Positions 566 to 58,359 of a stretch of DNA of 64,000 bases are shown in pieces. Source of the DNA: Mobula hypostoma (Eukaryota). Numbering within the stretch: the first letter of the stretch is position 1; each line of letters begins with the position of its first letter. The notes under the pieces are model-generated. The model ran no database searches and was not told the origin of the DNA. It saw only the letters and a list, made by a program, of their open reading frames with translations. A program made the translations under genes and the position numbers. The DNA lies in contig NC_086108.1 of the NCBI RefSeq assembly GCF_963921235.1, positions 14,942,001 to 15,006,000 of the forward strand. The letters run 5' to 3'.

Positions 566-963
566 CTAGTTCTGGTCTGGGCCCTCCATCCACAGCGTCC
601 CTCCTTGGAGGAAGGGCACTTATCCGGAGCAGGAAAGCTCAGAACACAAAGCCACAAACATTTGCCTAACCTTGGAAAGTCCCTGAAAGGAACAGAGAGT
701 CCACTGAAGAAAGTACTCTAGTTCCTGACAACAGAACTTCACTGCCTTTCTGAAGGCTGTCTCTCACTGTGTCACCTTACCCCACTCTCACTGAAGGTCC
801 TTGCACTGGGAACTGCATCCAAAGCTATTTCATTCCCTCAAACCATCCTGATGCCAAGGAAGGACTTGACTCAATGTTGGTTTCTTCAGCTATGAAGGGG
901 GAATTTCCATGTTTCAGAGGAGATTGCATACTCTCCATTTGACCAGGTAGGTTGGTAGTTTAA

Positions 964-1361
964 AAACGCAAACATGAGGAAATCTACAGATGCTGGAAGT
1001 TCAAGTAACACGCACAAAATGCTGGTGGAACACAGCAGGCCAGGCAGCATCTATAGGAAGAAGTACAGTCGACATTTCGAGCCAAGACACTTCATCAGGA
1101 CTAACTGAAAGAAGAGATAGTAAGAGATTTGAAAGTGGGAGGGGGAGGGGGAGATCGGAAATGATAGGAGAAGACAAGGGGGGTTGTGATAGAGCTAAGA
1201 GCTGGAAAGTTGATTGGCAAAAGGGATAAAAGGCTGGAGAAGGGAGAGGATCACGGGACGGGAGGCCTAGGGAGAAAGAAAGGGGGAAGGGTGTACTAGA
1301 GGAAGATGGAGAGCAGGTAAGGAGTTATTGTGAGAGGGATAGAGAGAGAAAAAAAAGGGAA

Positions 1362-1392
<31 letters not shown>

Positions 1393-2118
1393 GGGATGGG
1401 GTAAGAAGGGGAGGAGGGGCATTAACGGAAGTTAGAGAAATCAACATTCATGCCATCAGGTTGGAAGCTATGCAGACGGAATATAAGGTATTGTTCCTCC
1501 AACCTGAGCGTGGCTGGTGTGATATACTGCGGTCGGTGCTCCTGATGCGGCCTTCTATATATTGGCAAGACCTGACGCAGACTGGGAGATCGTTTCGCTG
1601 AACACCTACACTCTGTCCGCCAGAGAAAGCAGGATCTCCCAGTGGCCACACATTTTAATTCCACGTCCCATTCACATTCTGACATATCTATCCAGAGCCT
1701 CCTCTACTGTAAAGATGAAGCCACACTCAGGTTGGAGGAACAACACCTTATATTCCATCTGGGTAGCCTCCAACCTGATGGCATGAACATGGATTTCTCT
1801 AACTTCCGTTAATACCCCTCCTCCCCTTCTTACCCCATCTCATGTTGCTTGCTCTCCATCTTCCACTGGTGCTCCCCTCCCCCTTTCTTTCTCCCTAGGC
1901 CTCCCGTCCCATGATCCACTCCCTTCTCCAGCCTTGTATCCCTTTTGCCAATCAACTTTCCAGCTCTTAGCTCCATCCCTGCCCCTCCTGTCTTCTCCTA
2001 TCATTTCCGATCTCCCCCTCCCCCTCCCACTTTCAAATCTCTTACTAGCTCTTCTTTCAGTTAGTCCTGATGAAGGGTCTTGGCCCGAAACGTTGACTGT
2101 ACCTCTTCCTCTAGATGC
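964..2118. mobile_element. Fold-back Penelope-like element (minus-strand 3' arm 964-1515 joined to plus-strand GIY-YIG/3' arm ~1512-2118)
   Basis: Plus arm encodes decayed VIYC..C..C.LLYIG...EHL...ATHFN...QPDGMN GIY-YIG sequence; left arm is its reverse complement. Perfect 15-bp TSD AGGTTGGTAGTTTAA at 949-963 and 2119-2133. Confidence 0.92.
2063..2098 (+). ncRNA. Minimal type I hammerhead ribozyme motif (Penelope-associated)
   Basis: AGTC-CTGATGA-A-GGGTCTTGGCCC-GAAAC-GTT-GACT: stem I AGTC/GACT, CUGANGA and GAAA cores, stem II GGG/CCC, loopless palindromic stem III AACGTT, predicted cut after 2094. Confidence 0.75.
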
Positions 2119-2279
2119 AGGTTGGTAGTTTAATTGGCCAAGTTACCTCTGGTATGTGGGTGAGGGTAAGAATCTGAGGGGAGATGATGGGCATGTGAGG
2201 AGAATGGTGCAGGCCTATAGGTCTCATCAACAGCCTCCAAGAGGAAGGTGGGACACAGCTCATGAGAGATAACTTGCTC

Positions 2280-2850
2280 TTCATCCACCCACACCCCCCT
2301 TACGTTCCTCACCATCCCTCTCACTTCACACTAACTCACCCCTCCCCTCTCCCTCTTCTCTCCCCTCTGTACCCCTCCACCACTCACTCATCCTCACCTC
2401 CACCTTCTGTCTCTCTCCTCCCCCATCCATGCATTCTCCTCTCCATATCCTCACCACCCTATTCCTCCTCTCCACCGTCACTCCTCTTCCTCTTATCATC
2501 TCTCTCTTCCTTTCCTTCCCTCTTTTCACCTCTCACCCTCACTCACCTCTCCTTTACCCCCTCACCCTCCCCTCCACCTTTCAACATCTCCCTCTTTCCA
2601 CCCCTCCGCTCAACTCAACCCCTCAACTCACCCCTTTTTCCCCTCCATCCCTCCCTCCTCACACATACCCCTTCCTTCCCATTATATCATCACCAGCTTG
2701 TGCCCCCTGACCCCCTCCTCACTCCCCTCCATTCTCTCTTTCCTCTTCTTCCACCTCTCCTGCTCACCCCACTTACAGCCCTTCCCCTTCCACTGGCCTG
2801 CCCTCTCCCCATCACCTCCTTCCTCCCTCCATCACTCTGCACCTTTGCTT
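2280..2850. repeat. Pyrimidine-rich (C/T) low-complexity tract
   Basis: About 570 bp of CCCT/CTCT/CACC-type sequence with very few G on the + strand; ORFs are Pro/Ser/Leu low complexity. Confidence 0.9.
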
Positions 2851-55505: not shown

Positions 55506-56651
55506 TTTTGGTTCCTCTGAGTGCTCCAGTTTTCCCCCACATTCCAAAGACATACGGGTTAGCAGATTAATTGGTCACATGGGTGTAACTGGGCAGGATG
55601 GGCTCACTGGGCTGGAAGGATTGGTTACCATGCTATATCTCCAAATAAAGTAAATATAAGCAGTGACCAGAATTGCACATAATACTCCAAAATTTTATAG
55701 AACTTCAGCATGAAGAGGTAAAGCTCTACAAAGAGAATCAAGACAATACTCGTGTTCTTGTAGCTTGGTGTTCAGCCTGCTGCAGAACCTTGGAGTTGGG
55801 TTTGATTCTGAGACCCTGGCTGACACAAACACCAGCTGCAGTTCCAGTCTCCTGAGGTAGCTCAAGACTGCCACCCTGTGGTGGCTCTAATAATGAACCC
55901 AGCACTTGAAACAGTCGACCAGCCTGTCAACCACACATCACATTGCCAGCTGGACGGTCATGTTATGGAACCTTGAAGAAGTGATTGAACTTTGAGGAGA
56001 CCACCACTCGGACAGATCACTCTATGTTCCCAGCGGAGATTTTAACCCTGAGACCTCTCCATTCCAACTGACCTCCAGCCCATTGTTGTCTAACTCACCT
56101 GGTTGTCCACTTGCCAACTCTCACACAAGGACATCCCTGAGTGTTTCATTGTTTGTGGCTCCTGCTCCAGCAACATCTGATGGACATTTATTTCCAGTCC
56201 CTCCTCTCAAACACATTGAAAACCAGGAGCACTCCCAGCCCTGGTGTCAAACATTCTAAGCCTGACTTGATGGGCTGAATAGCCTAATTCTGTCTCAATG
56301 CTTTACGGACTTAATATCTTATTTCACATCATACCAATGCTGCCAGCCCTGTCTTTACCAGCTAGGGTTTCATTTTCTGGAGCTGCTTCTCCAAAACACT
56401 TCTCTTTTCCCACTTTTCCCCAACTTTAAAACAACTTATAGCTATATATCACTTTAGTAAAGACTCATTCATTTCCCTCCACAGATTCTGAACAACCTAC
56501 TGAGTTTCTCTGGGTTTTTGATTCAAATTCCAGCACCTGCATTCTCTTATGCCTTCATTTATAAGAAAAGTGTTAAGCTCTTTTTCAGGCAACACACATC
56601 AAAGTTGCTGGTGAACGCAGCAGGCCAAGCAGCATCTGTAGGAAGAAGTGC

Positions 56652-56687
56652 AGTCGACGTTTCAGGCCGAGACCCTTCGTCAGGACT
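56652..56687 (-). ncRNA. Minimal hammerhead ribozyme motif, intact core
   Basis: Reverse complement AGTC-CTGACGA-AGGGTCTCGGCCT-GAAAC-GTC-GACT. Confidence 0.78.
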
Positions 56688-58039
56688 AACTGAAGGAAGA
56701 GTGAGTAAGGGATTTGAAAGTTGGAGGGGGAGGGGGAGATCCAAAATGATAGGAGAAGATAGGAGGGGGAGGGATAGAGCCAAGAGCTGGACAGGTGATA
56801 GGCAAAAGGGGATACAAGAGGATCATGGGACAGGAGGTCCGGGAAGAAAGACAAGGGGGGGGGGAACCCGGAGGATGGGCAAGAGGTATATTCAGAGGGA
56901 CAGAGGGAGAAAAAGGAGAGTGAGAGAAAGAATGTGTGCATAAAAATAAGTAACAGATGGGGTACGAGGGGGAGGTGGGGCCTTAGCGGAAGTTAGAGAA
57001 GTCGATGTTCATGCCATCAGGTCGGAGGCTACCCAGACGGAATATAAGGTGTTGTTCCTCCAACTTGAGTGTGGCTTCATCTTTACAGTAGAGGAGGCCG
57101 TGGATAGACATGTCAGAATGGGAATGGGATGTGGAATTAAAATGTGTGGCCACTGGGAGATCCTGCTTTCTCTGGCGGACAGAGCGTAGATGTTCAGCAA
57201 AGCGGTCTCCCAGTCTGCGTCGGGTCTCGCCAATATATAAAAGGCCACATCGGGAGCACCGGACGCAGTATATCACCCCAGTCGACTCACAGGTGAAGTG
57301 TTGCCTCACCTGGAAGGACTGTTTGGGGCCCTGAATGGTGGTAAGGGAGGAAGTGTAAGGGCATGTGTAGCACTTGTTCCGCTTACCACCATTCAGGGCC
57401 CCAAACAGTCCTTCCCCCAGGTGAGGCAACACTTCACCTGTGAGTCGACTGGGGTGATATACTGCGTCCGGTGCTCCCAATGTGGCCTTTTATATATTGG
57501 CGAGACCCGACGCAGACTGGGAGACCGCTTTGCTGAACATCTACGCTCTGTCCGCCAGAGAAAGCAGGATCTCCCAGTGGCCACACATTTTAATTCCACA
57601 TCCCATTCCCATTCTGATATGTCTATCCACGGCCTCCTCTACTGTAAAGATGAAGCCACACTCAAGTTGGAGGAATAACACCTTATATTCCGTCTGGGTA
57701 GCCTCCAACCTGATGGCATGAACATCGACTTCTCTAACTTCCGCTAAGGCCCCACCTCCCCCTCGTACCCCATCTGTTACTTATTTTTATGCACACATTC
57801 TTTCTCTCACTCTCCTTTTTCTCCCTCTGTCCCTCTGAATATACCTCTTGCCCATCCTCCGGGTTCCCCCCCCCATCTTTCTTCCCGGACCTCCTGTCCC
57901 ATGATCCTCTCGTATCCCCTTTTGCCTATCACCTGTCCAGCTCTTGGCTCTATCCCTCTCCCTCCTGTCTTCTCCTATCATTTTGGATCTCCCCCTCCCC
58001 TTCCAACTTTTAAATCCCTTACTCACTCTTCCTTCAGTT

Positions 58040-58075
58040 AGTCCTGACGAAGGGTCTCGGCCTGAAACGTCGACT
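58040..58075 (+). ncRNA. Minimal hammerhead ribozyme motif, intact core
   Basis: AGTC-CTGACGA-AGGGTCTCGGCCT-GAAAC-GTC-GACT; predicted cleavage after 58071. Confidence 0.78.
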
Positions 58076-58359
58076 GCACCTCTTCCTACAGATGCTGCTT
58101 GGCCTGCTGTGTTCACTAGCAACTTTGATGTGTGTTGCTTGAATTTCCAGCATCTTCAGAATTCCTGTCGTTTAAGCTCTTTTTCAGACTTGTTTGCCCC
58201 ATTACAGGAAGGACGTTTAGGCTTTGGAGGATTCAGAAGAGGTCTATCGGGTGCTGCCTGGATTAGAGGGTATGAGCTATGATGACAGGGTGTATAAACT
58301 AGTGTTGTTTACCCTGGAGCTTTGGAGACTGACTGGAAACCTGTTAGAAGTTTGTAAAA

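What the first reader, a model, noticed from the sequence alone, without database searches (positions are those of the whole stretch)
949..58187. Series of fold-back Penelope insertions (160-1583 bp), each with a perfect 14-16 bp TSD
Seen: four palindromic units at 964-2118, 11652-11811, 13699-13935 and 56589-58171. Their TSDs are AGGTTGGTAGTTTAA, ATGTGCAGTACATT, TGAATTCATTAAGAT and TTAAGCTCTTTTTCAG. In each, both ends are element 3' ends facing outward; one arm runs to or near the terminal motif (GA(A/T)TTCCT..(T/C)GTTT) and the other stops a few tens of nt short. Three of four TSDs contain TTAA. Established: Penelope elements can form inverted pseudo-LTR arrangements. Inference: each unit arose in one integration event, with both nicked target strands (about 15-nt stagger) priming near the RNA 3' end or with cDNA fold-back. 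The window shows a size continuum of one mechanism, down to MITE-like sizes.
Basis: partly seen in the sequence, partly recalled or inferred. Interest (0 to 1): 0.8.

Follow-up and report, generated by a model that had tools for sequence, protein, structure and literature searches.

The report
Two-armed Penelope insertions, one tail each
The four units are real, dead copies of a Penelope-like jumping gene built as two truncated pieces head to head, a layout already in print; across this genome their ends follow strict rules (one long end and one short end, a roughly 13-base duplication, a mirror-image target) that likely record both cut DNA strands being copied from the element's RNA at once.

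Summary
Observation confirmed. All four units and their direct repeats are exact, and empty sites exist. They belong to an abundant Penelope-like element (RT, CX4CX2C linker, GIY-YIG). The layout (inverted 5'-truncated copy, 30-40 nt 'tail' on one end, TSD) is published (PMC8557442, PMC3846280), and this scan noted it before in this and other genomes.

- The 'terminal motif' is an internal RNA site, not the RNA 3' end.
- The true TSD is about 13 bp, not 14-16.
- TTAA is not enriched.
- Fold-back does not fit most units.
- The small units are not a MITE family.

Measured here:
- 86 of 89 units pair one tail end with one short end, while lone ends split 35:30.
- Half-sites lie symmetrically outside the duplication.
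- About 6 target bases partly match the RNA at both ends.
- Arm lengths are coupled short-with-short.

Best model: a likely dimeric RNP nicks both strands about 13 nt apart and primes at two internal RNA sites (twin TPRT, 0.72); a single shared RNA is about 0.5. Ordinary architecture, useful mechanistic constraints.

The parts
949..963 (+). Unit 1 left TSD copy (apparent 15 bp)
964..1515 (-). Unit 1 tail-bearing (site A) arm, antisense, older subfamily (78% to the young yardstick)
1502..2118 (+). Unit 1 tail-less arm, sense; stops about 84 nt before site A (outlier); 14-nt overlap with the other arm at the centre
2119..2133 (+). Unit 1 right TSD copy; a contig of organism D appears to run from about 949 directly to 2119 (empty site, inferred)
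11638..11825 (.). Unit 2 with both 14-bp TSD copies: tail arm from 11652 (antisense), tail-less arm to 11811 (ends at site B, -42); old subfamily
   Evidence: contigs of organism B run across its centre and ends
13684..13950 (.). Unit 3 with both TSD copies (apparent 15 bp): tail arm 13699-13859 antisense, tail-less arm 13855-13935 sense (ends -49)
56573..56588 (+). Unit 4 left TSD copy (apparent 16 bp, 2 nt shared with the element end)
56589..57386 (-). Unit 4 tail-less (site B, -41) arm, antisense, includes the GIY-YIG coding end
57371..58171 (+). Unit 4 tail-bearing (site A, -8) arm, sense; 16-nt overlap at the centre
58035..58076 (+). Minimal hammerhead-ribozyme-like motif in the pLTR (core motif recalled; no Rfam hammerhead match)
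   Evidence: sequence; negative
58139..58171 (+). The 'tail': sequence between RT start windows B and A
   Evidence: PMC11167929
58172..58187 (+). Unit 4 right TSD copy
16115..17207 (+). One-armed 5'-truncated copy of the same family ending at site B, 8-bp direct repeat; appears absent in organisms B and D (inferred)
40964..42064 (+). One-armed 5'-truncated copy ending at site B, no TSD found; carries the GIY-YIG frame

Best explanation
These are single-event, mostly abortive insertions of a Penelope-like retroelement, in which a likely two-fold symmetric (predicted dimeric) RT-GIY-YIG particle would nick both target strands about 13 nt apart and use each 3' end to prime reverse transcription at one of two internal RNA sites about 37 nt apart. 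One primer starts at the tail end (window A, -11 to +3) and the other upstream of the tail (window B, -47 to -37). The exact start in each window appears to be helped by loose pairing of about 6 primer bases with the RNA. The two antisense cDNAs stop early and are likely joined at the centre by microhomology-type repair, giving a head-to-head unit with a 13-bp TSD and a tail on one side only. Both cDNAs probably come from one RNA or from RNAs of one source copy. Shown: structure, TSD, end rule, target symmetry, primer-RNA match, empty sites. Inferred: nick geometry, dimer, order of steps, number of RNAs, repair route.
For: - End rule: 76 of 77 units with a TSD of 11 bp or more, and 86 of all 89, have one A and one B end. 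Lone ends use A and B 35:30 (65 ends), so independent choice predicts about 50% (P about 3e-22). A held-out 200 kb gave 2 of 2.
- TSD 13 in 6 of 6 unambiguous units; 50 of 58 compatible.
- Target symmetry, in the 38 of 76 units with a unique register: the flanks outside the duplication mirror each other (roughly GNYYGKTTT read 3' of each nick). A matrix trained on one side scores the other above random DNA (P=3e-10 and 2e-11), and the best register is shift 0.
- Primer-RNA match in 56 of 76 units: the first 6 target bases match the RNA just beyond the arm end at 0.41-0.68 (A) and 0.50-0.71 (B), against 0.24-0.43 permuted. The excess persists past the exact run (1.91 vs 1.15 and 2.05 vs 1.19 of 4; 0 of 2000 permutations).
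- Each arm often holds sequence the other lacks (B longer by 100 nt or more in 22 of 71).
- The centres overlap by 2 nt or more in 25 of 52 young units (14% by chance) and carry extra bases in 17.
- Shared source: arms differ by 4.7% vs 6.8% from other arms, and share 38 of 235 rare alleles vs 5.3 expected. Short arms pair with short arms (26/7/3/35, P=8e-10; unselected stretches alone 14/2/1/5, P=0.004).
- In vitro, a Poseidon PLE cuts and extends both strands, starts RT at two internal sites bounding the tail, and is predicted to be a dimer (PMC11167929).
Against: - No biochemistry exists here for this clade; the in vitro element is a Poseidon, and this one has the Neptune/Nematis-type linker.
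- The A and B start positions within a unit are not correlated (rho 0.16-0.22, n.s.), and long arms are uncorrelated in length (rho 0.06, n=43).
- A unit's own partner is its nearest arm in only 12 of 63, and 197 of 235 rare alleles are unshared, so one RNA cannot be told from two RNAs of one source.
- Near-equal arms are slightly in excess (8 of 43 vs 3.6, P=0.018), as fold-back would give.
- The central overlap counts come from BLAST ends that allow mismatches, against an exact-match null, so they are inflated.
- 15 of 76 units do not fit 13 bp.
- Most units come from loci picked by similarity to window copies and limited to 1.5-kb flanks.
Confidence: 0.72

Rival explanations
1. Fold-back: one nick primes a cDNA at the tail end, the cDNA snaps back and copies itself, and the copy is joined to the other target end near site B. 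Later deletions at the unstable centre make the arms unequal.
For: It gives at most one full tail by construction. It explains shared alleles, short-short coupling, the slight excess of near-equal arms, the overlaps at the centre and the target match at the B end.
Against: The tail-less arm is the longer one in 39 of 71 units, and by 100 nt or more in 22; extreme cases have 33 vs 1207 nt. Site B is used on its own by 30 of 65 lone ends, so it behaves as a start site. Both flanks carry the same nuclease-like half-site.
Confidence: 0.13
2. Self-priming on an antisense template before integration (Arkhipova et al. 2013) makes a hairpin or inverted intermediate, which is then inserted as a two-ended unit at a staggered cut.
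For: Proposed in PMC3846280 (Discussion) from palindromes at inverted junctions; overlaps at the centre are common here too.
Against: Target bases match the sense RNA beyond each arm end, including beyond site A where no finished intermediate would extend. 35 of 43 long units have arms differing by more than 50 nt. Sense-RNA TPRT on both strands was shown in vitro (PMC11167929).
Confidence: 0.08
3. Two separate RNPs (two RNAs, successive events) act at one staggered cut, and asymmetry of the complex, not a shared RNA, forces A at one nick and B at the other. This is a variant of the best explanation and overlaps with it.
For: Arms are not identical, and long arms are uncorrelated in length.
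Against: Short-short coupling and same-source alleles need an extra assumption; the target half-sites look alike on both sides.
Confidence: 0.3
4. Two independent adjacent insertions, a replicating MITE family, or assembly artefacts.
For: One A+A head-to-head pair without a TSD exists; copy density is high (267 ends in 1.264 Mb).
Against: One TSD around the whole unit in 77 of 89. Paralogous empty sites span the site in 30 of 79, and 26 of these have a hit with no gap at the site. Every small unit has its own centre. Contigs of another organism cross unit 2's centre, and one appears to skip unit 1.
Confidence: 0.02

Closest known systems
Canonical EN+ Penelope-like element insertion unit (Craig et al. 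2021, PMC8557442 Fig. 2 legend and text; Pen2a_Av in Arkhipova et al. 2013, PMC3846280)
   Same: [quoted passage not shown]
   Different: TSD about 13 bp here vs 8-10 bp in the rotifer examples. The one-tail rule is near-absolute here (86 of 89). The passages read give no counts, no symmetric target, no primer-RNA match and no arm-length coupling.
PAc, Poseidon of Anolis carolinensis, in vitro (Frangieh et al. 2024, PMC11167929)
   Same: Two internal RT start sites bounding the tail, both strands cut and extended, AT-rich targets, predicted dimer, hammerhead in the pLTR.
   Different: Different clade (no CX2-5CxxC linker in Penelope/Poseidon). [quoted passage not shown]
L1 twin priming (Ostertag and Kazazian 2001; recalled, not read)
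   Same: Both target strands prime cDNA; the two cDNAs are joined by microhomology; an inversion inside one TSD.
   Different: In L1 the second primer anneals far upstream and the two segments do not overlap. Here both primers start within about 40 nt of each other, so the same sequence is copied twice.

Membership tests
EN+ Penelope-like elements | [quoted passage not shown] | tested here: met
   1043-aa stop-free frame in a natural copy; Pfam RVT_1 E=5e-5 and GIY-YIG E=4e-4, both under the curated cut-off, on the 673-aa part; GIY-YIG over the cut-off on window fragments
EN+ Penelope-like elements | [quoted passage not shown] | tested here: met
   VIYCVRCSRCGLLYIGET followed by conserved-looking His residues in the translation; definition from PMC8557442; read by eye, not aligned to references
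EN+ Penelope-like elements | pLTR partial tandem, inverted 5'-truncated copy, optional 30-40 nt tail | tested here: met
EN+ Penelope-like elements | Hammerhead ribozyme in the pLTR | tested here: inconclusive
   Core motif visible at window 58035-58076 (recalled consensus); Rfam gave no hammerhead match; cleavage untested
Neptune (or Nematis) clade | CX2-5CxxC linker between RT and EN | tested here: met
   CKRNKCYTC upstream of GIY-YIG; definition in PMC8557442
Neptune (or Nematis) clade | RT phylogeny with reference clades | not tested
   No named reference sequences were held; a preprint lists only Neptune and Poseidon in the vertebrates it sampled (passages), which favours Neptune
Penelope/Poseidon clade | Absence of the CX2-5CxxC linker | tested here: not met
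   Linker present
MITE (non-autonomous TIR element) | Many copies of one internal structure with matching terminal inverted repeats | tested here: not met
   28 small units each have their own centre, and their two ends are unequal

The most novel reading that the evidence does not exclude
Penelope-like elements integrate by default as a two-fold symmetric machine: a dimer grips one RNA, reads two mirror-image half-sites outside a 13-bp core, and primes both strands at once at two fixed internal RNA sites, each chosen by loose 6-nt primer pairing. The tail, the inverted pLTR and the mini-palindromes (copies of the RNA's own 5' pLTR) would all be by-products of this obligate twin priming, the long-missing step of the PLE cycle.
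Probability: 0.45. Interest if true: 0.65.

Novelty: new member of a known kind. Interest (0 to 1): 0.42.

Why it matters
The architecture is known, but its cause is not: Craig et al. 2021 call it the product of 'still undefined features' of the PLE cycle, and the only in vitro study read here leaves the later steps unvalidated. This genome holds a very large fossil record (about 200 ends per Mb in the stretches sampled). The measured rules give exact predictions for the existing in vitro assay: A+B exclusivity, 13-nt stagger, symmetric half-sites, loose primer pairing and length coupling. In practice, such units should be annotated as single PLE insertions, not as MITEs or miRNA hairpins.

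Tried and rejected
- TTAA target: not enriched.
- RNA guiding of the flanking half-sites: no in-register match of either flank to the RNA beyond its own start site (30 units; best P=0.04 among 8 tests).
- Element as its own preferred target: single half-site-like words lie at sites A and B, but no paired site near the tail ranks among the element's top six; not claimed.
- Fixed spacing between the A and B starts within a unit: not found.
- Arms ending at the predicted hammerhead cut: inner ends of small units spread from about -100 to -170 and cluster near -137 to -142, upstream of the motif, not at the cut.
- Rfam gave only hairpin-driven miRNA hits below threshold. PDB had no sequence relative. 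One genome search returned nothing.
- None of the four window units had a paralogous empty site in the DNA held.
- The read-laying output was swamped by repeats, so the empty-site joints were not among the rows shown and are inferred from equal contig depth and piece ends.
- The held-out replication was small (2 units in 200 kb).
- No complex prediction and no clade tree were run.
- Paper searches found no paper applying twin priming to PLEs (0 papers) and none giving these counts. Subscription papers (Arkhipova 2006, Evgen'ev and Arkhipova 2005, Pyatkov 2004), Repbase notes and the supplements of PMC11167929 and PMC8557442 were not seen and may hold some of this.
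Full report
Observation. The four direct repeats occur exactly twice each, at the stated unit boundaries. Each unit is an antisense piece of one repeat family followed by a sense piece, with overlaps of 14, 5 and 16 nt at the centre of units 1, 3 and 4.

Identity. Window fragments encode the end of a GIY-YIG domain. Genome matches led to a full-length natural copy with a 1043-aa stop-free frame: RT with the DKG motif, a CX4CX2C linker and GIY-YIG with the internal cysteines. 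By the definitions in PMC8557442 (passages) this is an endonuclease-bearing Penelope-like element of Neptune/Nematis type, not Poseidon; no tree was run. That copy has the textbook layout: inverted truncated arm with tail, short 5' pLTR, ORF, 3' pLTR without tail, and one apparent 15-bp TSD around all 4.9 kb. [quoted passage not shown]

Census. A profile found 267 ends in 1.264 Mb and none in reversed sequence. Close neighbours are overwhelmingly head-to-head (45 of 86 such pairs within 500 bp, against 7 of 85, 3 of 64 and 2 of 27). I added 148 loci from genome searches; five of the six successful queries were end regions lacking the tail, and one was the GIY-YIG region. The pipeline gave 93 candidates. 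Two at locus edges and two nested duplicates or fragments were dropped, leaving 89. Window units 1 and 2 fall outside its thresholds and were checked by hand. Of the 89, 77 have a TSD of 11 bp or more, against 1 of 400 shuffled pairs. Allowing for bases shared by target and element, the length is 13 in 6 of 6 unambiguous units and compatible with 13 in 50 of 58. TSDs are AT-rich (68% vs 57%) but TTAA is not enriched.

One event per unit. With the unit removed and the TSD kept once, 30 of 79 sites align across the site to other copies of the host repeat, and 26 of these have a hit with no gap there; none of the window's four is among them. Laying four public runs on window 800-17500 gave three relevant results. 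Contigs of organism B cross unit 2's centre and right end. In organism D, pieces of equal depth cover about 824-949 and 2119-3360, which I read as the empty site of unit 1. The lone copy at 16115-17207 appears absent in B and D. The two absences are inferred from piece ends and depth, because the joints were not among the rows shown. Small units each have a different centre, so they are not a replicating MITE.

End rule. Ends fall in two windows, A (-11 to +3 from the tail end) and B (-47 to -37). 86 of 89 units are A+B, 2 are B+B and 1 is A+A, whereas 65 lone ends split 35 A to 30 B; P is about 1e-22. A held-out 200 kb gave 2 of 2. The tail is not tied to the longer arm (B longer in 39, A in 29 of 71). 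The B arm exceeds the A arm by 100 nt or more in 22 of 71, so it cannot be a simple copy of the A cDNA unless large one-sided deletions followed.

Target and priming. In the 38 of 76 units with a unique 13-bp register, the flanks outside the duplication mirror each other. A matrix trained on one side recognises the other (P=3e-10 and 2e-11) with a sharp register; 110 unpaired ends show a weak peak 12-13 nt out. In 56 units with well-placed ends, the first six target bases match the RNA beyond the arm end about 50-60% of the time, against about 30% when permuted, at both A and B, and the excess remains past the exact run. Because these bases are duplicated on the far side, they are target-derived. 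This points to loose primer-template pairing at both nicks.

One RNA or two. Arms of a unit are closer than arms of different units (4.7% vs 6.8%, 63 units) and share 38 of 235 rare alleles against 5.3 expected. The partner is the nearest arm in only 12 of 63. Short arms (175 nt or less) go with short arms (P=8e-10; P=0.004 in unselected stretches), with inner ends near the upstream edge of the hammerhead-like motif; long arms are uncorrelated. It does not exclude two RNAs from one source.

Mechanism. Inferred steps: symmetric nicking about 13 nt apart with 3' overhangs; priming at B and at A; early termination; joining of the two cDNAs by microhomology-type repair (overlap of 2 nt or more in 25 of 52, extra bases in 17); fill-in. 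Lone copies would arise when only one nick primes; 18 of 65 keep a 10-14 bp repeat at the truncated end. Confidence 0.72 for twin priming and about 0.5 for one RNA.

Comparison. PMC8557442 (passages), PMC3846280 (passages and Discussion) and PMC8969392 (passages) describe the inverted copy and the tail; PMC8557442 notes the tail is often at one end only, and PMC3846280 gives TSDs of 8-10 bp. PMC11167929 (main text and start of methods read; supplements not read) shows both-strand cutting and extension, two internal starts bounding the tail and a predicted dimer. Nine searches found no paper giving the exclusivity count, the stagger, the symmetric half-sites or the primer match; older subscription papers were not searchable. 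Earlier notes of this scan report the same architecture and one-tail rule; none was returned for the symmetric target. Verdict: a new member of a known kind, real and ordinary in layout, with measurable rules that make the open PLE mechanism testable. Interest 0.42.

Noticed in passing
L053:8909-8950 and L054:8177-8220 (G000 contig C2, about 9 kb apart): An identical 28-nt micro-insertion of the element's own tail, flanked by a 14-bp duplication, sits at the same ORF position in the inverted arm of the full-length copy and in a neighbouring copy of another subfamily. The sense arm lacks it, yet matches the inverted arm at 46 sites where the neighbour differs. Gene conversion, a recurrent hot spot or an assembly effect; unexplained.
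   Followed up: partly
G000:C2:120448453-120453313 (L053, L054): Full-length young copy with a stop-free 1043-aa frame; sister copies are 98-99% alike, so the family expanded recently.
   Followed up: partly
L220:1241-1611, L177:719-1613, L208:2079-2295: Young units inserted into older copies of the same element type, one of them inside the tail.
   Followed up: partly
window 57320-57407: The centre of unit 4 scores as several miRNA precursor families below Rfam thresholds purely as a hairpin; such centres could yield double-stranded RNA if transcribed.
   Followed up: no
window 26532-28650: Degenerate frames resembling an LTR-retrotransposon pol (protease, RT, integrase-like; recalled resemblance).
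   Followed up: no
window 14762-15581, 52748-55056, 58631-63568: Several LINE-like RT fragments in both orientations, 74-80% alike (family assignment recalled).
   Followed up: no
window 13611-14167 and 15839-17500: Summed contig depth over young element sequence is several-fold lower in organism D than in A or B, a hint of lineage-specific expansion; contig depth is no copy number.
   Followed up: no
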